64,000 nt of DNA from NCBI GenBank assembly GCA_047608975.1, contig JBLFYM010000006.1, positions 5,029-69,028 of the forward strand, in the 5' to 3' direction. This document shows, piece by piece, positions 29,949-39,247 of this stretch. How positions within the stretch are numbered: position 1 is the stretch's first letter; each line of letters starts with the position of its first letter. This stretch comes from Limisphaerales bacterium (GTDB lineage: Bacteria > Verrucomicrobiota > Verrucomicrobiia > Limisphaerales > JAYPXF01). Made by a program: the position numbers and the translations under genes. Below the pieces are notes generated by a model. It saw only the letters and a list, made by a program, of their open reading frames with translations. It did no database searches and was not told the origin of the DNA.

Positions 29949-32483
29949 CTACGGATTGACACCCTGCACCGGACGCTTGGTGCCAGGCCAATGAAGCCAG
30001 TTGGCATTGGTGTCATTCATCAGGACCGGCGGAAGATTTGTGCTGAGAAGTGCTTCGAAGGCGGGCGCGCGTCGATCCTTTTGGAGAATGGCTTGTTCCC
30101 AATTGGAAAGCGTGAATCCCAGCCCCGCCATACGAACGTGATCAAAGCCGCCACTCGGTCGATCAAAGAGGCGGGGAAATTGTTGCATCCATTTCAACCA
30201 GAGACCGCCGATGTGATATTTGGCATTGGGTTTGCCGGTCAGACGTTCGCGGGCCGCATCGAGTTCGATCCAGAGGTTGTCCAAGGTGTTCAGCGGCGTT
30301 TCCTTTTTGGCTTCGTATCGCCCGAAGTAGAGCATGGCGATGCCTTCGCGGTGGCGCATGCTGGGGTCTGCAATCTGGTTGTGAATGCGGACTTGTGAGC
30401 AGCGTTGGGCGACGACGTTCCAATCCAAATCAGAATCCTTGAAGCCCACGAGAGCGAGACCAGGATGACGGGTCTTGAAAGTGAGACGGAAGAGATGCGT
30501 CGTTGGGAAGGCTTCCTTGAAGGTGTTGGCGATGACGGTGAATTGATCGGCGGTGAGCTGATACATCGGCAGCCATTGGCAGAAAATCCCGCCCGGTCGC
30601 AAAGCGTCGCGAACAGACGCAAAGTGTTCACGGGAATAGAGCCGTCCGACGCCTGCGCCCCACGGCAGGAAGAGATCTGCCTCGATGACGTCAAAGCTCT
30701 CCCGACAGGCGGCGAAGTAGGTGCGACCGTCTTCGTTCAAAACGCGGGCGTGCGAAACGTTGGCGACGTCATGATTGATCTCGGCGAAGTGTTCAGTGGC
30801 CGCATCAATCACAGATTCGGCGATCTCGATGGAGACAATCTCCTCGACTGAATCGTGAAGCACTGCCGCGCCGGGTGTCATCCCAGTCGCGTGCCCAATG
30901 AAACCAGCGCTCTTGGGAGCGGGATGCAAGAGCAGCGGCAGGTGGGCTTGACGTTCCTGCATATATTTGGCCCGCGAACTTCCCAAGACGTACTGGTTGG
31001 ACATCATGATCGCGCGCCCCATACCTTCGTGCTCGATCACGGCAAGATGCCCTTCGCGACCGTTCTTCTCTTCCAGGAGTTTGAAGCCCATGTTCGCATT
31101 CACGTGTGGAATGTTTGGCAACTTCCCGAATAGCAAACCGGCAACCAGGACAAAAGAAACAGCAGTTACCCCAATGGATAAGGCGCTTCGCGAGACCGAC
31201 CTCCAGAGGAGAAAGCCAACGGCAAATACCACGTAAACGAGCCCTACAACGCCAAGCGACTGGTAGACCCCGAGCTTGGGGAGCAACCAGCGATAGGTGA
31301 TCTCCGCACCAAGCAATCCGCCCAGTCCATTTACGGCCAGCAACCAGCCCAGTTGTCTGCCCTTGGCATCGTTGCCCTCCTCGCTCAACCATTTCAATGC
31401 GGCAGGAAACAACATGCCAGCGAAGAAGATGGCTGGGCCAATGGTGGCGAGCGCGACGCCGGCGAACTTCAACATGAACATCAATACGCTGGGGTTGGAT
31501 ACGTAGGGATGATGTCGAGTGACGATCGCCATGTAGATCACCGGTGCAAGCGCGAGGCAGAGTCCAGCTATAGCGGCAAAGACGACGATCGCATGCGAAA
31601 GCTTCCCGCAAAGCTTCGTGAGCGGTCCGATTAGCCAAGCCGAAACGGCAAGGAGCAGAATCACCGCGACCAGCAAGGCGGTCGGGGTATGGAAAGACAT
31701 GGTCGCAACCAAGGTATACATCTTGAAGGCCGCCACTTCGGCTGCCATTACCCCGGCGCCTGAAAAGCCCGCGATGACGAGAATGCCCGGATCCAATCGT
31801 CGGTTCTCGGACTCGTTCGATTCGCGTGCGAGTTGTTTCTCGATGCGTTGGGTCTCGCGCAAATGCAGTTGCCAAAACGCAAAACCAAGCCCGGCGTTCA
31901 TAGTCATCATGGCGATCATGGACGCGGAAGCACCGGCAGCGGGAATGATGAAGCCGGCCAGAATCAGCAGTCCCACCACCCCGCCAACGGTATTGAAGGC
32001 GTAGAGATTGATGCCCTGCCGTCCCAGTTCGAATCCACCCGCCATGACCCCGCGAACGATGACTGGAAAACCGAAGCCCATGAGCGTGGCTGGGGGCACG
32101 ATCATCAGTGCAGACAGGAGGAACTTGATCAGGCCGCCAGGCCAGGCAACAAGCAAGTCCGGGCCTACCCGTGGCCAGATCCAATCGGTGAGTTGCGGCA
32201 GGAATAGAATGGGCAGCGTGAGAAGAACGATGCCGACTTCCAGGCGAGCCAATACAAGGAAAGGACGTTTGATGCGATGCACGTAGACGGCGGCCAGAGC
32301 GGAACCGAGCCCCAGCCCAAAGAAGAAGCAACTGAACACCCGCACGCTGGATTCCGCGCTCGCTCCCAAAAGATCCGTCAACCGGCGCGTCCACAATAAT
32401 TGATGTCCCAATGCGGCGGCACCGCTGAGCAGCAGCAACAGCAGAGCGAGGCGGTAGACTTGTTGAGAACGTTTGTCACCCAT
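29949..32483 (-). CDS. Fused multi-TM / spermidine-synthase-like SAM-dependent transferase
   Basis: LSGAAALGHQLLWTR, LYAFNTVG, about 13 TM segments, FIGHATG, IEIAESV, EDGR, DVIEAD, YSREHF. Confidence 0.85.
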   Translation of the reverse strand: MGDKRSQQVYRLALLLLLLSGAAALGHQLLWTRRLTDLLGASAESSVRVFSCFFFGLGLGSALAAVYVHRIKRPFLVLARLEVGIVLLTLPILFLPQLTDWIWPRVGPDLLVAWPGGLIKFLLSALMIVPPATLMGFGFPVIVRGVMAGGFELGRQGINLYAFNTVGGVVGLLILAGFIIPAAGASASMIAMMTMNAGLGFAFWQLHLRETQRIEKQLARESNESENRRLDPGILVIAGFSGAGVMAAEVAAFKMYTLVATMSFHTPTALLVAVILLLAVSAWLIGPLTKLCGKLSHAIVVFAAIAGLCLALAPVIYMAIVTRHHPYVSNPSVLMFMLKFAGVALATIGPAIFFAGMLFPAALKWLSEEGNDAKGRQLGWLLAVNGLGGLLGAEITYRWLLPKLGVYQSLGVVGLVYVVFAVGFLLWRSVSRSALSIGVTAVSFVLVAGLLFGKLPNIPHVNANMGFKLLEEKNGREGHLAVIEHEGMGRAIMMSNQYVLGSSRAKYMQERQAHLPLLLHPAPKSAGFIGHATGMTPGAAVLHDSVEEIVSIEIAESVIDAATEHFAEINHDVANVSHARVLNEDGRTYFAACRESFDVIEADLFLPWGAGVGRLYSREHFASVRDALRPGGIFCQWLPMYQLTADQFTVIANTFKEAFPTTHLFRLTFKTRHPGLALVGFKDSDLDWNVVAQRCSQVRIHNQIADPSMRHREGIAMLYFGRYEAKKETPLNTLDNLWIELDAARERLTGKPNAKYHIGGLWLKWMQQFPRLFDRPSGGFDHVRMAGLGFTLSNWEQAILQKDRRAPAFEALLSTNLPPVLMNDTNANWLHWPGTKRPVQGVNP

Positions 32484-32592
32484 GACACGAAAACGCGGAG
32501 ACCGTAGTCCCCGCACAAAAACGAGGCGAGCCCTGACCGGCACACATTTACGGTCAGAGCCCGCCTATCCCGTCACCCGACGGGAAATTTGA

Positions 32593-35562
32593 CTAGGGTT
32601 GCGGTTGTTGAATTCCGATCCGGAAGAAGCGTGATCCAATCGTCGCTGGGTCACGGTTCACATCCAAGAGCCGGAGGATATTACCATCAGGAACTGCCTG
32701 TGCTCCGTTGACCGGCGCGAACACCGTCGGCGCATTGATTGCCTCGCTGGATTCCAGCATGAGATTCAATCCGCCGGTCGGGCCTTCCACCTTCACCCCC
32801 GCTACGAAGACTTGCGTCACACGCAAGACCGGAACGTTCGGACTCGTCGCAGCCGGACCGGTTGAACCGTTGACAACAAACCGATAATTCCCTGGTACAG
32901 CGCCGGTGGCGCTCAGGGTCGCGCCGCTTGCCCCTGGAATATCCACGCCGTCCAGTTGCCACTGGTAAGTCAATCCATCTCCCGTCACTGCACCGGCGGG
33001 AATGCTCAACATCAGTGAGCCGTCGGGCGCCAACACAGCACCCGGCAGAGCAGACGTAAATGTCGCGACGTTAACAGTCGCGGGCACGGGTGGAGCCTGA
33101 ACCAAGAATGTCAGAGTGCCCGAACCACTCACGGCTCCGAGCGTGTTGTGCATGCCGGCAGCTGTCAGGTTGAGCTGGTAGTTACCCGGTGCCGAGAAAC
33201 CCAGATTGAAGTGCTCATGATGCCCAGCTTCGACGGTGAAGTTGTCTGCGGCCGAAACCCCATCGGCACTCGACATGCGGAAGGTGGGCGTCAGACCAGC
33301 TTGGTAAACCGAGAAGTGACCCGGCCCACTCACACTGTTCAATGTCCAGGCAATGTCTCCGTTCCAATCACCGGCCGTCAATTCTTCCGCAGCCCAACCG
33401 AGAAACACTGCTCCGGCCGTTTCCGAAGCATTCTCTGTCTGAGGTAGAACAAAGACGGCTGCGCCAGAGCTTGCGCCAGTCGGATCCCACTCCGAGCCAC
33501 TCGGTCGTGCGATCAAGGTCGACGCCGGCACCACGACATGAAGGTCCTCTGCCTCGAACTCATTCTGTTGCGGCGCGCCGCCCGTAATCGTCGTCATGCC
33601 ACCGGTGAATTCGGTGTGGAAACCGATTTCTAACTGGTTGCCATCCAACTCAAGATTCACGTCGCCATGTCCACCGGTCAGTTGGAACGGATCCGCTGCC
33701 ACATCGAAGGTCAAGGTGCTGGTCGAGCTCACGACACCCGCAGTGTTGTGCGTGCCTGCCACAGCTACCTGAACCTGATACTTGCCCGGTTGTGAAAACC
33801 CGAGATTGAAATGCTCATGATGACCGGCTTCAACCGTGAAGACATCTGCTGCACTGACTCCATCGGATGACGCCATGTTAAAAGTCGGTGTCAGCCCAGA
33901 TTTGTAAACGGAGAAAGCCCCCGGTCCGGTTACTCCGGTCAAGGTCCAGTTAAGGTCGCCGGTCCAGTCTCCCGCCATCAATTCCTCAGCGGCCCATCCC
34001 AGCCGAACCACGCCGGCGGCTTCGGATTCCGATTCCGTCTGCGGCATTATGTTCATGCGCTGCCCTGCAGGAATACCGATCGGGTCGAACTCCGCTCCCG
34101 CGGGGCGCGTCGTAGTCGTACCCGTCGGAACGTTGATGATGATGTCAGACGCGGCGAACTCGTTTTGCTGCGGCGCACCTCCCGTGATTTCAGTATGTCC
34201 GCCGGTGAACTCAGTATGGAATCCGACTTCCAATTCGGAACCATCGAACTCCAGGTTCACATCGGCATGTCCGCCAGTAAGTCGAAAGGGGGTCGCTGCC
34301 ACATCGAAGGTAAGAGTACTGGTCCCATTGACCGCACCAGCCGTGTTGTGCGTTCCCGCCACATTCAACTGAATCTGGTAAGTGCCGGGTGCGGAGAAGC
34401 CGAGATTGAAGTGCTCGTGATGACCGGCCTCTATCGAGAAAGAATCACCAGCGGTCAAGCCATCGGCCGAAGCCATATGGAAGTTCGGCGTGAGCCCTGA
34501 TTCATAAACCGAAAATGTTCCCGGACCGGTCACGCCGCTCAAAGTCCAGTTGAGGTCACCTGACCAATCGGCGGCAGTCAGTTCTTCAGCGGCCCAGCCC
34601 AAACGAACCACACCGGCGGTTTCGGACGCCTCTTCAGTTTGGGGCATCACGTTGATGCGTTGGCCGCCCGGAACACCGATTGGATCAAACCCGGCGTCTG
34701 TCGGCCGCGTCGTGGTCGTGCCAGTCGGCACATTGATGATGATGTCTGCTGCTTCGAATTCGTTCTGCTGCGGCGCGCCTCCCGAGATTTCGGTCATACC
34801 ACCCGTGAACTCTGTGTGGAAGCCGACTTCCAATTCTGCCCCATCGAATTCGAGATTCACATCGGCATGTCCACCGTTGATCCGGAACGGTGTCGCAGCC
34901 ACGTCGAACGTCAGTGTCCCAGTCGTGTTGACTGCACCAGCCGTGTTGTGCGTTCCCGAAACGTTCAATTGAACCTGGTAGGTTCCCGGTGTAGAGAAGC
35001 CGAGATTGAAATGCTCATGATGACCGGCTTCGATCGTGAAAGCATCTGCAGCGCTGATGCCGTCTGAGGAAGCCATTCTGAATGTCGGTGTCAGGCCGGA
35101 TTCATAAACCGAGAACGTTCCCGGGCCGGTCACGCCAGTCAAAGTCCAAGTGAGGTCGCCTGTCCAATCGGCGGCTGTCAACTCTTCCGCAGCCCACCCG
35201 AGACGAACCACACCAGCAACTTCAGATGCCTCTTCAGTTTGCGGCATCACGTTGATGCGCTGACCACCCGGAACACCAATCGCATCGAACTCTGTTACAG
35301 CGGGACGAGCCGTGGTGGTGCCGATTGGCACGTTCACAGTCAGGTCAGCGGTTTCAAACTCGTTCTGCTGAGGTGCGCCACCGGTGATGGTAGTCATACC
35401 ACCGGTGAATTCGGTATGGAAACCGATCTCCAGGTTTGCACCATCGAATTCTAGGTTTACATCGGCATGCCCGCCGGTAAGGAGATACGGCTGGGCACTT
35501 GCGGTGCCGACGACGGACAAAATCGTCAGCAAACAAATCATAATTGTCGGTCTATTTTTCAT
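32593..35562 (-). CDS. Large surface protein with four tandem choice-of-anchor M domains, Ig-like domain and RFFRI tail
   Basis: Signal peptide; 4x GGH(A/G)DVNLE...FHTEF...GHHEHFNLGFS.PG.Y; TYQWQLDGVDIPGA; ends SRFFRIGIQQPQP. Confidence 0.88.
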   Translation of the reverse strand: MKNRPTIMICLLTILSVVGTASAQPYLLTGGHADVNLEFDGANLEIGFHTEFTGGMTTITGGAPQQNEFETADLTVNVPIGTTTARPAVTEFDAIGVPGGQRINVMPQTEEASEVAGVVRLGWAAEELTAADWTGDLTWTLTGVTGPGTFSVYESGLTPTFRMASSDGISAADAFTIEAGHHEHFNLGFSTPGTYQVQLNVSGTHNTAGAVNTTGTLTFDVAATPFRINGGHADVNLEFDGAELEVGFHTEFTGGMTEISGGAPQQNEFEAADIIINVPTGTTTTRPTDAGFDPIGVPGGQRINVMPQTEEASETAGVVRLGWAAEELTAADWSGDLNWTLSGVTGPGTFSVYESGLTPNFHMASADGLTAGDSFSIEAGHHEHFNLGFSAPGTYQIQLNVAGTHNTAGAVNGTSTLTFDVAATPFRLTGGHADVNLEFDGSELEVGFHTEFTGGHTEITGGAPQQNEFAASDIIINVPTGTTTTRPAGAEFDPIGIPAGQRMNIMPQTESESEAAGVVRLGWAAEELMAGDWTGDLNWTLTGVTGPGAFSVYKSGLTPTFNMASSDGVSAADVFTVEAGHHEHFNLGFSQPGKYQVQVAVAGTHNTAGVVSSTSTLTFDVAADPFQLTGGHGDVNLELDGNQLEIGFHTEFTGGMTTITGGAPQQNEFEAEDLHVVVPASTLIARPSGSEWDPTGASSGAAVFVLPQTENASETAGAVFLGWAAEELTAGDWNGDIAWTLNSVSGPGHFSVYQAGLTPTFRMSSADGVSAADNFTVEAGHHEHFNLGFSAPGNYQLNLTAAGMHNTLGAVSGSGTLTFLVQAPPVPATVNVATFTSALPGAVLAPDGSLMLSIPAGAVTGDGLTYQWQLDGVDIPGASGATLSATGAVPGNYRFVVNGSTGPAATSPNVPVLRVTQVFVAGVKVEGPTGGLNLMLESSEAINAPTVFAPVNGAQAVPDGNILRLLDVNRDPATIGSRFFRIGIQQPQP
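33069..35490 (-). repeat. Four intragenic tandem units with 600-bp period
   Basis: Anchor atcggcatg/gtcgccatg at 35461, 34861, 34261, 33661; outer boundaries approximate. Confidence 0.9.
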
Positions 35563-35697
35563 TTCAGGGTACGCCAACACAGTTGGCCAAAGGTTTTTCA
35601 AGGTCAGATTAAGCGACGCAGTCCGCCGCCAAGAGTGAGTGTGGGAAGGCGCGATCCGACAAGGTGTCGAATCCCGTTTGCGGGAGGACGAGGAAAT

Positions 35698-36066
35698 CTA
35701 GGAGACAGGAGGGGCGCGCCCGGGGATGGCAGAAGAAGACAATCCGGAAGCAACCTGGCCGTGTTCGAGCAGTGTCACTTCCGATATCACAACGAACTGA
35801 AGTGGGACGAAACCGATTGCCACCGGAACATCCGCGCACCCGGCAGCAAGAAGCTCGATCAGGCACTGATGACCATCGGGCAATCCGGATCCTTGCTCAT
35901 GCCCGGTTTCGGCTTGGCAGCCTGAGGAGCAACAATATGACGCCCCTTCACAATGCAGTTCGGCATGAAGCCCCGGCAGATGAACAAGCGTACCAGCCGC
36001 CAAAACGCTGAATGCCAAAGCGGTGGCAAGCAGGAGTTTGAGTGCGTGTTGAGTGCGCGTTACCAT
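35698..36066 (-). CDS. DUF2946-like His/Cys leader protein ending in RAPP
   Basis: Signal-like N-terminus, HLPGLHAELHC..YCC..GC...GH...GHQC, C-terminal PGRAPPVS-stop; ATG at 36066. Confidence 0.75.
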   Translation of the reverse strand: MVTRTQHALKLLLATALAFSVLAAGTLVHLPGLHAELHCEGASYCCSSGCQAETGHEQGSGLPDGHQCLIELLAAGCADVPVAIGFVPLQFVVISEVTLLEHGQVASGLSSSAIPGRAPPVS

Positions 36067-36083
36067 TTGCAAGCGATATGCAA
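36067..36083. promoter_or_regulatory. Palindromic operator, copy 2
   Basis: TTGCAAG-CGA-TATGCAA immediately upstream of the DUF2946 start. Confidence 0.65.
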
Positions 36084-36173
36084 TAAGAGAGTAAGGAAAG
36101 TGGTTCGTCAAGGATTTTGGTGGTGAACAGAATACAACCTGGCCGATCGAATTGAAGTAAGACGGATTTATTA

Positions 36174-36190
36174 TTGCAAACCTATCGCAA
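36174..36190. promoter_or_regulatory. Palindromic operator, copy 3
   Basis: (A)TTGCAAA-CCT-ATCGCAA(T) upstream of the Fur-family gene. Confidence 0.75.
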
Positions 36191-36226
36191 TTATTACGGG
36201 AAGGGACATAGCTTTGCCGCGTTCTT

Positions 36227-36700
36227 ATGGGAACGCAGAATTCAGTTCAGCGATCGGTTTATGAGCGTTGTGAATACGTCTCCAACGTACTTCAACAAGC
36301 GGGCAATCGGCTGACCAAGTCCCGCCGTGAGGCCATTCGTGTGCTGTGCTCAGCAAGCGCGCCCATGTCGATTCAGGATCTGCACGAAGAGGTGGTACGC
36401 AGGGGTTCCAGCGATCTCAGCACCCAATACCGTCTGATGAACGAGCTCCAACGTCTGGATCTCGTAAAGGCGGTCGAAGTTCCCGGCCAGTCCATGCCCG
36501 GCTACGTCGTGCACCTGCCGGGGGAAAGCAATGATCTGCTGGTGTGCGTTCGCTGTGGCCATTATGTGTGGCTAGAGGAGGCTGCTGAAATTCGGAAGCT
36601 GGAGGAACGAGTTGCCAAAAAAATGAAATTTGGAGAGCTCTCACACGAACTGCGCCTCAACGGGGTTTGCGAACCGTGTCAGGAAACTTCCGATCCGTAA
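36227..36700 (+). CDS. Fur-family transcriptional regulator (Zur-like, atypical)
   Basis: RLTKSRR, LSTQYRLMNELQRLDLV HTH, CVRC and CEPC structural Zn site, HELRLNG. Confidence 0.88.
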   Translation: MGTQNSVQRSVYERCEYVSNVLQQAGNRLTKSRREAIRVLCSASAPMSIQDLHEEVVRRGSSDLSTQYRLMNELQRLDLVKAVEVPGQSMPGYVVHLPGESNDLLVCVRCGHYVWLEEAAEIRKLEERVAKKMKFGELSHELRLNGVCEPCQETSDP

Positions 36701-39215: not shown

Positions 39216-39247
39216 TAACGGAATCAGCCCGCTAGCGTCAACCGCAA

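What the first reader, a model, noticed from the sequence alone, without database searches (positions are those of the whole stretch)
35698..36066. DUF2946-like uORF ending in RAPP: probable metal-sensing ribosome-arrest leader
Seen: a 122-aa ORF with an export signal, a dense His/Cys cluster (HLPGLHAELHC-YCC-C-H-HQC) and RAPP at 35707-35718, two codons before the stop. It lies 135 nt upstream of the 4x CoA-M gene. The gap has several hairpins, one (gccaac-tgt-gttggc) just before the ATG, and no clear SD. Known: RAPP-type motifs arrest ribosomes (ApdA/ApdP), and the DUF2946 leaders CutF (Rhodobacter) and CruR (Bordetella) give copper-responsive control of downstream genes. Inference: here the mechanism may sense Zn or another metal on top of Fur-type repression. 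The usual CxxC reads CLIE.
Basis: partly seen in the sequence, partly recalled or inferred. Interest (0 to 1): 0.8.

Follow-up and report, generated by a model that had tools for sequence, protein, structure and literature searches.

The report
Zinc-linked RAPP ribosome-arrest leader peptide
A small conserved gene in front of a zinc-capture operon of a marine Verrucomicrobium is a divergent relative of the copper-sensing leader peptide CruR; it most likely stalls its own ribosome at a terminal RAPP motif and uses a His/Cys site in the growing chain to tie expression of the downstream genes to metal supply.

Summary
Window 35698-36066 (-) encodes a 122-aa protein with an N-terminal membrane helix and a His/Cys cluster, ending ...PGRAPPVS*. 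It lies 135 nt upstream of the 4x choice-of-anchor-M gene.

It is a real gene. More than 40 homologues (down to about 20% identity) all keep R(A/G)PP 1-14 residues from the stop. One has QAPP.

Pfam DUF2946 does not hit it directly. However, its family profile matches Pfam-positive DUF2946 proteins of the same order (hhalign 97.4%, E 1e-11). The Cys-to-RAPP spacing is exactly the 45 residues reported for CruR. The CxxC motif is replaced by HxC. Four near-invariant ligands (H34, H38, H66, C68) suggest a His3Cys site.

Across Verrucomicrobiota these leaders head ZnuABC-type, choice-of-anchor-M or ABC-2 operons, which points to zinc rather than copper. A second copy in this genome heads a porin-like OMP-znuACB operon.

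The spacer has no intrinsic terminator and no start-site pairing with the arrest site. It has a conserved C>G bubble and three conserved hairpins, and rho is present. I therefore favour CruR-like Rho-dependent attenuation on top of Fur/Zur-type repression. Arrest, metal response and Rho dependence are all inferred, none shown.

Verdict: a new variant of a known kind, of moderate interest.

The parts
36106..36111 (-). Putative -35 hexamer TTGACG of the leader promoter, 39 nt before the start codon
   Evidence: TTGAC is invariant in 7 aligned upstream regions, including the paralogue, at 39-41 nt from the start codon. The consensus promoter scan found no full sigma-70 match, so this is inference.
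36066..36084 (.). Fur/Zur-type operator (palindrome ATTGCAAA-N3-TTTGCAAT, one mismatch) abutting the leader ATG. It implies a 5' UTR of about 10 nt or less.
   Evidence: Seven window matches against 2.4 expected. Five lie at the promoters of this regulon (28183, 36066, 36173, 39198, 39247). The site keeps the same position in L008, L004, L051 and the paralogue.
35698..36066 (-). Leader ORF, 122 aa (P0001): a divergent DUF2946/CruR-type peptide
35980..36045 (-). N-terminal hydrophobic helix (residues 8-29), a signal peptide or membrane anchor
   Evidence: Kyte-Doolittle mean 1.96 over residues 11-30. AF2 predicts a helix at 2-29 with pLDDT about 90. A hydrophobic N-terminal segment is visible in the homologue sequences.
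35953..35970 (-). L-H34-x-x-L-H38 motif, two near-invariant His on one helix face
   Evidence: H34 and H38 are invariant in A2 and at least 90% conserved in A3. AF2 predicts a helix at 31-45.
35854..35871 (-). H66-Q-C68-L-I-E71: the position of the family's CxxC motif, here HxC with the second Cys lost
   Evidence: H66 and C68 are at least 90% conserved. C68 aligns with the first Cys of CxxC in Pfam-positive relatives. The C-to-R offset is 49 (range 48-50) in 31 of 34 sequences listed; for the remaining three, which lack the His of the HxC search pattern, the script gave no value.
35707..35718 (-). RAPP arrest motif (R117-P120), two codons before the stop
   Evidence: Invariant or near-invariant in all homologues. 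RAPP and RGPP are experimentally robust, EF-P-refractory arrest cores (PMC12992588, PMC10951233).
35615..35750 (-). C>G bubble (C 40%, G 22%) running from leader codon ~105 into the spacer and peaking at RAPP/stop; candidate Rho-utilisation region
   Evidence: top 1% of genome windows. The 80 nt after the stop have C-G of +10 to +21 in all 9 close orthologues and the paralogue.
35650..35676 (-). Hairpin HP1, flanked by invariant CAAA and GCCUU, starting about 21 nt after the stop codon
   Evidence: Predicted in 8 of 8 orthologues. 82% of cells are paired against 23-43% for slid controls, and 6 of 12 pairs carry changes on both sides.
35612..35630 (-). Hairpin HP2 (GGCGGCG-GACUG-CGUCGCU)
   Evidence: Predicted at the syntenic place in 8 of 8 orthologues, with different stem sequences.
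35573..35588 (-). Hairpin HP3 (GGCCAAC-UGU-GUUGGC), 10 nt before the choice-of-anchor-M start codon
   Evidence: A hairpin is predicted at the equivalent place in all 8 orthologues: a GCCAA...UUGGC-type stem in 6, and hairpins of different sequence in L008 and L004.
32593..35562 (-). Controlled gene: 4x choice-of-anchor-M surface protein. It has no operator or promoter of its own. The MFS/spermidine-synthase fusion gene (29949-32543) follows it.
   Evidence: NF038134 at 336 bits with four stretches. There is no operator in the spacer. The gene order is conserved in L001-L004, L008 and L154.

Best explanation
The ORF is a cis-acting regulatory leader peptide of the CruR/DUF2946 kind, adapted to a zinc-acquisition regulon of a Verrucomicrobium.

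Proposed sequence of events:
1. Transcription starts at a Fur/Zur-operated promoter, and the leader is translated from a very short 5' UTR.
2. When the ribosome reaches R117-A-P-P120 it arrests. Peptidyl-RAP-tRNA sits in the P site and Pro-tRNA in the A site, two codons before the stop.
3. At that moment the near-invariant ligands H34, H38, H66 and C68 have just left the exit tunnel, because C68 is 51 residues from the peptidyl-transferase centre.
4. If metal (most likely Zn2+) is available, it closes this His3Cys site. The folding or tension releases the arrest, the ribosome terminates and leaves, and Rho loads on the now naked C-rich, G-poor RNA (35615-35750). Transcription then stops before the choice-of-anchor-M/MFS-SpeE genes.
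5. If metal is scarce, the arrested ribosome stays, Rho is kept off, and the uptake genes are transcribed.

Shown here: the gene, its conservation, its homology to DUF2946, the fixed 45-residue spacing, the synteny with Zn-type uptake genes, the C>G bubble, the lack of an intrinsic terminator, and the presence of rho.

Inferred: the arrest, metal binding and the identity of the metal, the sign of the response, and Rho dependence.
For: **Real, conserved gene with a fixed ending**
- Seven close homologues share an invariant PGRAPP-xx-stop. Three more, at 33-39% identity, keep RAPP.
- All 29 further loci inspected, from other genera of the order, end in R[AG]PP (one QAPP).

**Homology to DUF2946**
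- 12 of 34 family members hit PF11162 at E<=1.
- G196:C42 matches both models.
- hhalign of A2 against Pfam-positive A5 gives 97.4% probability and E 1.2e-11, with H..LH, the first Cys and RAPP in register.

**Spacing**
- The Cys-to-Arg offset is 49 (range 48-50) in 31 of 34 sequences listed, which equals CxxC plus 45 residues.
- In CruR this spacing is conserved to within 1-2 residues, and Roy et al. report that it plays a role in regulation (PMC9426467).

**RAPP as an arrest core**
- RAPP and RGPP arrest ribosomes of several species with many upstream contexts and resist EF-P (PMC12992588).
- RAPP mutants of CruR abolish downstream expression.

**Metal context**
- The window holds a ZnuD-like TBDT, a ZigA-like COG0523 GTPase, a Fur-family gene and two choice-of-anchor-M genes.
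- The paralogue P0014 heads an OMP-ZnuA-ZnuC-ZnuB operon.
- In 14 of 19 sampled loci from other genera the leader is followed by the same OMP, then ZnuA, then ZnuB, with ZnuC in some. In 3 loci a choice-of-anchor-M protein follows within about 1 kb, and in 1 an ABC-2 system follows.
- Anchored-repeat/surface proteins are Zur-regulated in C. diphtheriae (PMC6711530). ABC-2 genes belong to the Caulobacter Zur regulon (PMC4176598).

**Output**
- No intrinsic terminator and no promoter were found in the spacer.
- C-G is +18 over 136 nt, in the top 1% of genome windows, and is conserved in orthologues.
- rho is present at 665 bits.
- The spacer is 135-155 nt, against 162 nt in cruR.

**Physical precedent**
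- Zn2+-dependent folding of a His2Cys2 domain at a defined tether length releases SecM arrest in vitro (PMC4571824).
Against:
- Pfam's own DUF2946 model does not recognise the protein, and the defining CxxC is incomplete.
- The spacer folds no better than shuffled sequence overall (z = -0.09).
- A C>G bubble in the top 1% is suggestive, not diagnostic, of a rut site. Three conserved hairpins sit inside the proposed Rho-loading region.
- An arrested ribosome covers only about 30 nt, so how it would keep Rho off the downstream C-rich stretches is unexplained, as it also is for CruR.
- Zinc is inferred from gene context only. The ZnuA-like protein scores nearly as well against Mn-type models. TlpA/AhpC-like and MerC-like genes in the regulon could point to copper.
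- A second hydrophobic stretch (residues 82-100) suggests the peptide might also be a genuine membrane protein.
Confidence: 0.62

Rival explanations
1. The leader peptide is the same, but the output is translational, of the CutF/SecM type. The arrested ribosome would remodel spacer RNA structure (HP1-HP3) so that the start region of the choice-of-anchor-M gene becomes accessible. Metal binding, possibly in the periplasm after Sec targeting, would either induce or relieve the arrest.
For: - Three conserved hairpins lie in the spacer, one only 10 nt before the ATG.
- CutF works this way (bioRxiv 10.1101/2025.02.05.636593).
- Earlier follow-ups in this scan reported arrest-codon/SD pairing in other zinc-linked RAPP leaders.
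- In the window's own minimum-free-energy fold the G-R codons pair with CGCGCCU 3' of HP1.
Against: - There is no SD to mask.
- HP1 begins about 21 nt after the stop codon, which I estimate to be beyond the leading edge of a ribosome at RAPP or at the stop. HP3 is more than 100 nt away.
- Duplex energies between the arrest site and the start region are not better than shuffles (window z = -0.43; 8 of 9 loci lie between +0.15 and -1.44).
- The G-R/CGCGCC pairing is not kept in the orthologues.
- The start region is A-rich and predicted to be open in all folds.
Confidence: 0.17
2. The product is mainly a working small membrane or periplasmic metal-binding protein (a chaperone or accessory of the uptake system, acting in trans). 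The C-terminal RAPP would be a tolerated or merely slow ending without a regulatory role.
For: - The TM helix, the conserved His/Cys ligands and a second hydrophobic stretch at residues 82-100.
- Some CutF-like proteins (CzcI) lack the Pro motif and may act differently.
Against: - RAPP and RGPP are among the most avoided tetrapeptides in proteomes, yet they are invariant here at a fixed 45-residue distance from the Cys.
- The region between Cys and RAPP is conserved in length but not in sequence.
- AF2 finds little structure beyond residue 45.
- The gene lay immediately upstream of the operon genes, on the same strand, in every locus examined.
Confidence: 0.1
3. It is a secretion or insertion monitor like ApdA/ApdP/SecM. 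Arrest would be released by the Sec/YidC pulling force rather than by metal, so that expression of the surface protein follows export capacity.
For: The N-terminal export signal plus a C-terminal RAPP is the architecture of ApdA/ApdP (PMC7897499, PMC10951233).
Against: - The downstream genes are metal-uptake genes, not sec, yidC or secDF.
- Near-invariant His/His/His/Cys residues and homology to metal-responsive DUF2946 argue for a metal role.
Confidence: 0.05

Closest known systems
CruR (Bp2923) of Bordetella pertussis, prototype of Pfam DUF2946/PF11162 (Roy et al. 2022, PMC9426467)
   Same: - It is the first gene of a metal-uptake operon and has an N-terminal export signal.
- A Cys motif lies exactly 45 residues before a C-terminal RAPP, which sits 2-3 residues from the stop.
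- The spacer is long (162 nt there, 135 nt here), with a C>G bubble running from the 3' end of the ORF into the spacer and no intrinsic terminator.
- Homology is supported profile-to-profile.
   Different: - The second Cys of CxxC is lost (C-L-I-E). A preceding His (HxC) and an LHxxLH motif are conserved instead.
- The Pfam model is not matched.
- The host is Verrucomicrobiota, whereas the published survey lists mostly Proteobacteria.
- The target is a Zn-type regulon (choice-of-anchor-M, ZnuABC, COG0523) under a Fur/Zur-type operator, not a copper TBDT.
- The spacer carries three conserved hairpins.
CutF of Rhodobacter capsulatus (DUF2946-like; PMC9973294 / bioRxiv 10.1101/2025.02.05.636593)
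   Same: It is a small Sec-targeted peptide with a Cys/His metal site and a C-terminal Pro-rich arrest sequence, acting only in cis on the next gene.
   Different: - CutF uses PPP (EF-P dependent), senses periplasmic Cu, and induces a detoxifying enzyme by melting an SD-masking stem-loop in a short spacer.
- Here the motif is RAPP, the spacer is long, there is no SD and no reachable masking helix, and the target is an uptake system.
ApdA/ApdP and other RAPP/RGPP arrest peptides (Sakiyama 2021 PMC7897499; Morici 2024 PMC10951233; Fujiwara 2025 PMC12992588)
   Same: They share the RAPP core near the C-terminus of a small exported protein upstream of the regulated gene.
   Different: - Those peptides monitor Sec/YidC capacity, or are uncharacterised, and have no conserved His/Cys site.
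- I did not test for sequence homology between ApdA/ApdP and this leader. The downstream genes here are metal-uptake genes.
Engineered ADR1a-SecM constructs (Nilsson et al. 2015, PMC4571824)
   Same: Zn2+-dependent folding of a His/Cys site at a defined tether length from an arrest motif releases the arrest. This is the physical principle proposed here.
   Different: That is an artificial reporter with a 29-residue zinc finger at a tether of 24-26 residues. Here there is a natural, putative His3Cys site spanning residues 34-68 at a tether of about 51 residues.

Membership tests
DUF2946 / CruR family (PF11162) | Match to the Pfam PF11162 HMM above the gathering score (23.7 bits) | tested here: not met
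   P0001 has no hit at E<=1. A whole-genome scan with PF11162 finds nothing at this locus.
DUF2946 / CruR family (PF11162) | Demonstrable homology to accepted members | tested here: met
   hhalign of A2 against A5 (A5 holds proteins matched by PF11162 in the scan of this order, most above the cut-off) gives 97.4% and E 1.2e-11 over 102 columns. G196:C42 matches A2 at 1.2e-9 and PF11162 at 28.1 bits. 12 of 34 relatives hit PF11162 at E<=1.
DUF2946 / CruR family (PF11162) | Conserved C-terminal RAPP a few residues before the stop | tested here: met
   R117-A-P-P120 followed by V-S-stop. The motif is invariant in the homologues.
DUF2946 / CruR family (PF11162) | Conserved CxxC motif | tested here: not met
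   The motif reads C68-L-I-E71. The fourth position is E, K, Q, Y, T or V in the subfamily, and only the first Cys and H66 are conserved.
DUF2946 / CruR family (PF11162) | 45 (+/-1-2) residues between the Cys motif and RAPP | tested here: met
   There are exactly 45 residues between E71 and R117. The C-to-R offset is 49 (48-50) in 31 of 34 sequences listed.
DUF2946 / CruR family (PF11162) | N-terminal export signal; first gene of a metal-related operon with a long spacer | tested here: met
   Helix at 2-29. The leader lies directly upstream, on the same strand, in all 19 sampled loci plus the window and the paralogue, and the spacer is 135-155 nt in the close orthologues.
DUF2946 / CruR family (PF11162) | Ribosome arrest at RAPP and metal-dependent relief | not testable with these tools
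   This needs toeprinting or reporter assays. Transcriptome mapping was unavailable.
CruR-type Rho-dependent attenuation | C>G bubble spanning the ORF 3' end and the spacer; no intrinsic terminator; Rho present | tested here: inconclusive
   The bubble is present and conserved, there is no terminator, and rho is present. These are permissive features, not proof of termination.
CutF-type translational unmasking | Stem-loop masking the SD or start of the next gene within reach of the stalled ribosome; PPP motif | tested here: not met
   There is no SD. The nearest hairpin begins about 21 nt beyond the stop. Arrest-site/start-region duplexes are not better than shuffles. The motif is RAPP, not PPP.
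ApdA/ApdP Sec-monitoring arrest peptides | Located upstream of secDF, yidC or other localisation genes | tested here: not met
   The downstream genes are choice-of-anchor-M and MFS/SpeE here, and OMP-ZnuACB, choice-of-anchor-M or ABC-2 in relatives.

The most novel reading that the evidence does not exclude
This would be a natural zinc-sensing nascent chain. A His3Cys site (H34, H38, H66, C68) would form co-translationally just outside the exit tunnel and mechanically release an EF-P-refractory RAPP arrest, switching Rho-dependent attenuation of zinc-capture genes. It would be the first zinc-responsive arrest peptide, and would show that the CruR principle has been re-tuned from Cys2/copper to His3Cys/zinc across a whole phylum, working as a second lock beside Zur.
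Probability: 0.35. Interest if true: 0.7.

Novelty: new variant of a known kind. Interest (0 to 1): 0.5.

Why it matters
In the literature I could search, post-transcriptional metal sensing by a nascent peptide has been shown experimentally only for copper (CruR, CutF). This locus and its relatives suggest three things.

- The same RAPP-plus-45-residue design has been re-equipped with a His-rich, single-Cys ligand set and attached to zinc-acquisition operons (ZnuABC, choice-of-anchor-M, ABC-2). In the samples searched the family was found in about 13-16% of Verrucomicrobiota genomes.
- Pfam's model misses most of these proteins. In the genomes sampled it passed the cut-off in 7 of 201, while the family profile matched 33 of 201.
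- Zur-type repression can be doubled by a co-translational check.

The fixed spacing and four candidate ligands give a directly testable system for asking how metal-dependent folding at the ribosome exit releases an arrest that EF-P cannot.

Tried and rejected
- **Direct family scans.** Pfam and NCBIfam scans of P0001 gave no hit. A whole-genome PF11162 scan found nothing at the locus.
- **Named GTDB genomes.** The search for related loci with A3 had no usable conserved stretch. With A2, none of the pattern matches was confirmed. I therefore inferred the taxon from Rho similarity instead.
- **Known RNA families.** Rfam at E<=10 over 35300-36400 found nothing, so a known riboswitch or leader RNA is rejected.
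- **Terminators and promoters.** The scan of the spacer found none, so hairpin/U-tract attenuation is rejected.
- **Anti-SD or start-region pairing with the arrest codons.** This was suggested by earlier notes of the scan. It is no better than shuffles in the window and in 8 of 9 loci, so it is rejected here.
- **Thermodynamic stability of the spacer.** The z-score is -0.09. The hairpins are therefore supported by conservation and covariation only.
- **Copies of the spacer element elsewhere in the genome.** nhmmer found none.
- **Solved structures.** The PDB sequence search found nothing for the leader family or for the coiled-coil OMP.
- **Structure prediction.** The AF2 model is low-confidence beyond residue 45, so I ran no fold search.
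- **Spurious hit.** P0011, a 1230-aa repeat protein in the representative search, matches only low-complexity sequence and was dropped.
Full report
**1. Observation**

Reading the minus strand of 35300-36400 and translating 35698-36066 gives a 122-residue protein:

MVTRTQHALKLLLATALAFSVLAAGTLVHLPGLHAELHCEGASYCCSSGCQAETGHEQGSGLPDGHQCLIELLAAGCADVPVAIGFVPLQFVVISEVTLLEHGQVASGLSSSAIPGRAPPVS*

- RAPP is encoded at 35707-35718, and two codons (V, S) precede the TAG stop.
- The next ATG, at 35562, opens a 989-aa protein with four choice-of-anchor-M domains (NF038134, 336 bits, four stretches). The gap is 135 nt.
- A Fur-family gene (PF01475) is transcribed divergently at 36227-36700.

**2. A real, conserved gene, and RAPP is not chance**

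- A word-indexed search found six homologues at 40-65% identity. An exhaustive HMMER search found three more small homologues at 33-39%.
- All end in RAPP followed by two or three residues. In the seven closest sequences PGRAPP is invariant.
- A profile of these ten sequences found matches in 33 of 201 genomes of the same order, in 27 of 118 genera.
- In all 29 loci that I opened, the ORF ends in R(A/G)PP (once QAPP) plus 1-14 residues.
- In a 34-sequence alignment with a mean column identity of only 21%, P119 and P120 are invariant. H34, H38, H66, C68 and R117 are at least 90% conserved.
- The third codon positions of R-A-P-P vary among orthologues, so the constraint is on the peptide.
- In the whole 6.4-Mb genome only 8 of 24,942 six-frame ORFs of at least 50 aa end in R[AG]PP plus 0-4 residues. 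Two of them are this gene and a paralogue.

**3. Family**

- Pfam and NCBIfam give no hit for the protein itself.
- Twelve of the 34 relatives do hit DUF2946 (PF11162) at E<=1, with a best E-value of 4.8e-6. These alignments run to the last profile position.
- One protein (G196:C42) matches both my family profile (E 1.2e-9) and PF11162 above its cut-off (28.1 bits).
- I aligned six proteins of the same order matched by PF11162 in the scan, most above its cut-off (A5). Comparing that alignment with the close family (A2) by hhalign gives 97.4% probability and E 1.2e-11 over 102 columns. H..LH, the first Cys and RAPP are in register.
- Here C68-L-I-E71 is followed by exactly 45 residues before R117. 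The Cys-to-Arg offset is 49 (range 48-50) in 31 of the 34 sequences listed. For the other three, which lack the His of the search pattern, the script gave no value.
- The protein is therefore a divergent DUF2946/CruR relative that has lost the second Cys. The fourth position is E, K, Q, Y, T or V in the subfamily.
- What is conserved instead is H two residues before the Cys (HxC) and an LHxxLH motif directly after the membrane helix.
- A sub-branch (L009-L011) has even replaced the Cys by His (HPHG).

**4. Anatomy of the peptide**

- Residues 8-29 form a hydrophobic helix: Kyte-Doolittle 1.96, and an AF2 helix at 2-29 with pLDDT about 90.
- AF2 predicts further helices at 31-45 and 69-74. Everything else is low-confidence, as was reported for CruR.
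- A second hydrophobic stretch (residues 82-100) lies between the Cys and RAPP. It would still be largely inside the exit tunnel when the ribosome reaches RAPP.
- With the peptidyl-transferase centre at P119/P120, C68 is about 51 residues away, just outside the tunnel.
- The four near-invariant candidate ligands, H34 and H38 (i, i+4) plus H66 and C68, would therefore become available together only as the ribosome arrives at the arrest site.
- This geometry, and the fact that length but not sequence is conserved between Cys and RAPP, is what a force-coupled sensor would need.
- There is an engineered precedent. Zn2+-dependent folding of the His2Cys2 domain ADR1a at a defined tether length abolishes SecM arrest (PMC4571824).

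**5. Which metal**

The window carries the following genes:
- a ZnuD-like TonB-dependent receptor (E 1e-87), a 2x choice-of-anchor-M gene, and an MFS/spermidine-synthase fusion;
- the 4x choice-of-anchor-M gene, the leader, and the Fur-family gene;
- an ABC-2 system, a ZigA-like COG0523 GTPase, two thioredoxin-like genes, and MerC.

A palindrome, ATTGCAAA-N3-TTTGCAAT, occurs at five promoters of this set: 28183, 36066, 36173, 39198 and 39247. In all there were seven window matches against 2.4 expected.

The genome has a paralogous leader (P0014...HPPGRAPPIV*). It carries the same operator in front of its ATG. It is followed by a 506-aa coiled-coil outer-membrane-like protein and then by ZnuA/AztC-, AztA- and AztB-like genes.

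I fetched 10-kb neighbourhoods of 19 leaders from other genera:
- 14 are followed by the same OMP, then ZnuA, then ZnuB, with ZnuC in some;
- 3 have a choice-of-anchor-M protein within about 1 kb downstream. In the matching smaller loci the ORF directly after the leader is a prepilin-like protein;
- 1 is followed by the ABC-2/TPR-like genes;
- 1 is followed by an unidentified gene.

Supporting literature:
- Anchored-repeat/surface-protein systems are Zur-regulated in C. diphtheriae (PMC6711530).
- ABC-2 genes are part of the Caulobacter Zur regulon, where a DUF2946 gene with a Zur box also sits next to czrCBA (PMC4176598).

Zinc is therefore the best-supported ligand, but only by context. The ZnuA-like protein scores almost as well against Mn models, and the thioredoxin-like genes would also fit copper.

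The published surveys that I could search associate DUF2946/CutF-like genes with Cu, and some His-only clusters with Ni/Co. I found no mention of zinc in their main text. The RAPP survey of Fujiwara et al. likewise does not mention zinc.

**6. Output mechanism**

- The spacer contains no intrinsic terminator, no sigma-70-like promoter and no operator. The choice-of-anchor-M gene must therefore be read from the leader's promoter.
- There is no SD before its ATG, and the start region is A-rich and open in all folds.
- Eight orthologous spacers (135-155 nt) share three hairpins at syntenic positions, with different stem sequences.
- For HP1, 82% of cells pair against 23-43% when the partner is slid. 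Six of 12 pairs carry double changes, and 3 of 500 shuffles reach the covariation score.
- HP1 starts about 21 nt after the stop codon, beyond the reach of a ribosome at RAPP or at the stop. HP3 is more than 100 nt away.
- Duplex energies between the arrest-site RNA and the start region are not better than shuffles (window z = -0.43).
- A SecM/CutF-type unmasking is therefore not supported here, although earlier follow-ups of this scan reported it in other zinc-linked RAPP leaders.
- In contrast, a C>G bubble (C 40%, G 22% over 35615-35750) runs from codon ~105 to the middle of the spacer and peaks at RAPP/stop. It is in the top 1% of genome windows.
- The 80 nt after the stop have C-G of +10 to +21 in all nine close loci, against about 0 for the ORF body.
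- rho is present (665 bits).
- This is the arrangement described for cruR, where a ribosome arrested at RAPP blocks Rho and copper-induced release allows termination.
- For an uptake operon the same sign makes sense: metal present leads to release, termination and no uptake.
- I therefore favour Rho-dependent attenuation. All steps beyond the sequence features are inference.
- The role of the three hairpins is unexplained. Possibilities are an RNA polymerase pause site, spacing of rut segments, or a processing or stability element.

**7. Promoter**

- TTGAC(G/T) is conserved 39-41 nt before the start codon in seven loci. In five of them the operator fills the last 19 nt before the ATG.
- With a 17-18 nt spacer and a weak -10 (TCTTAT or CTTATT), the 5' UTR would be only about 10 nt.
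- This is geometry, not evidence of a transcription start.

**8. Taxon and spread**

- Rho is 77-82% identical to that of Verrucomicrobiota MAGs.
- The close homologues come from marine metagenomes.
- A broader profile finds the family in 39 of 301 genomes sampled across the phylum, in 26 of 149 genera.
- PF11162 passes its cut-off in only 7 of 201 genomes of the order.

**9. Comparison and novelty**

- The kind is known: CruR (PMC9426467), CutF, and the general finding that RAPP and RGPP are strong, EF-P-refractory arrest cores enriched at the C-termini of small exported proteins upstream of diverse genes, including metal genes (PMC12992588).
- The scan's own notes list 41 entries matching the search words, in at least 38 genomes. 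The eight shown describe similar RAPP-type, mostly zinc-linked leaders.
- What differs here: the ligand set (HxC plus LHxxLH instead of CxxC), the failure of Pfam's model, the lineage, the choice-of-anchor-M target, the long structured C-rich spacer without SD pairing, and the stacking on a Fur/Zur-type operator.
- I class it as a new variant of a known kind.

**10. Confidence**

- That this is a CruR-type cis-regulatory arrest leader: about 0.75.
- That the ligand is zinc: about 0.55.
- That the output is Rho-dependent attenuation: about 0.5.
- The combined statement: 0.62.

Noticed in passing
G000:C62 (locus L037 8835-9185, minus strand): A second, paralogous RAPP leader (P0014, 116 aa, ...HPPGRAPPIV*) with a purely His-rich linker (HHHHAHSQDHGDHDHH) and an HTC motif. 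The same operator lies in front of its ATG. It heads an OMP-ZnuA-ZnuC-ZnuB operon.
   Followed up: yes
L037 7190-8710 (-), and the first gene after the leader in L135-L148: A roughly 500-aa protein with a signal peptide, an N-terminal coiled coil (QETNEVEQLKKQLQ...) and an outer-membrane-like C-terminus ending in F. It has no Pfam, NCBIfam or PDB match. It sits between the RAPP leader and znuA in 14 of 19 sampled loci from other genera. It is a candidate zinc-specific porin family without annotation.
   Followed up: partly
window 28183, 36066, 36173, 39198, 39247: The palindrome ATTGCAAA-N3-TTTGCAAT marks five promoters of the locus. It differs from classical Fur and Zur boxes. The site at 39247 overlaps the annotated ATG of the COG0523 gene, whose real start may be the Met about 31 codons further downstream.
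   Followed up: partly
window 36067-36111 and the orthologues in alignment A6: The -35-like TTGACG lies at a constant 39-41 nt from the leader start codon, which leaves room for only about a 10-nt 5' UTR without an SD. The leader may be translated from a nearly leaderless mRNA.
   Followed up: partly
L009-L011 (G160, G198, G033): A Cys-less sub-branch of the leader family (EEHPHGLLTLMAG...GRAPP) lies upstream of a prepilin-type (GFTLIELLVV) protein, which is followed by large choice-of-anchor-M proteins.
   Followed up: partly
window 35766-35822 (leader residues 82-100): A second hydrophobic stretch (VAIGFVPLQFVVISEVTLL, Kyte-Doolittle 2.0) lies between the Cys motif and RAPP, and is strongly hydrophobic in many relatives. 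It would be inside the exit tunnel at the moment of arrest. Its role is unclear; it may be a spacer, a second TM segment, or a force generator after release.
   Followed up: no
window 35646-35680: The invariant single-stranded flanks CAAA (5') and GCCUU (3') of hairpin HP1 are kept in all eight orthologues although the stem varies. No partner or function was found.
   Followed up: partly
G000:C36 (L054 1489-3300, minus strand): Rho carries an N-terminal extension of about 190 residues rich in K, A, P and E (PKPDAPKPDAPKPDAPKP repeats).
   Followed up: no
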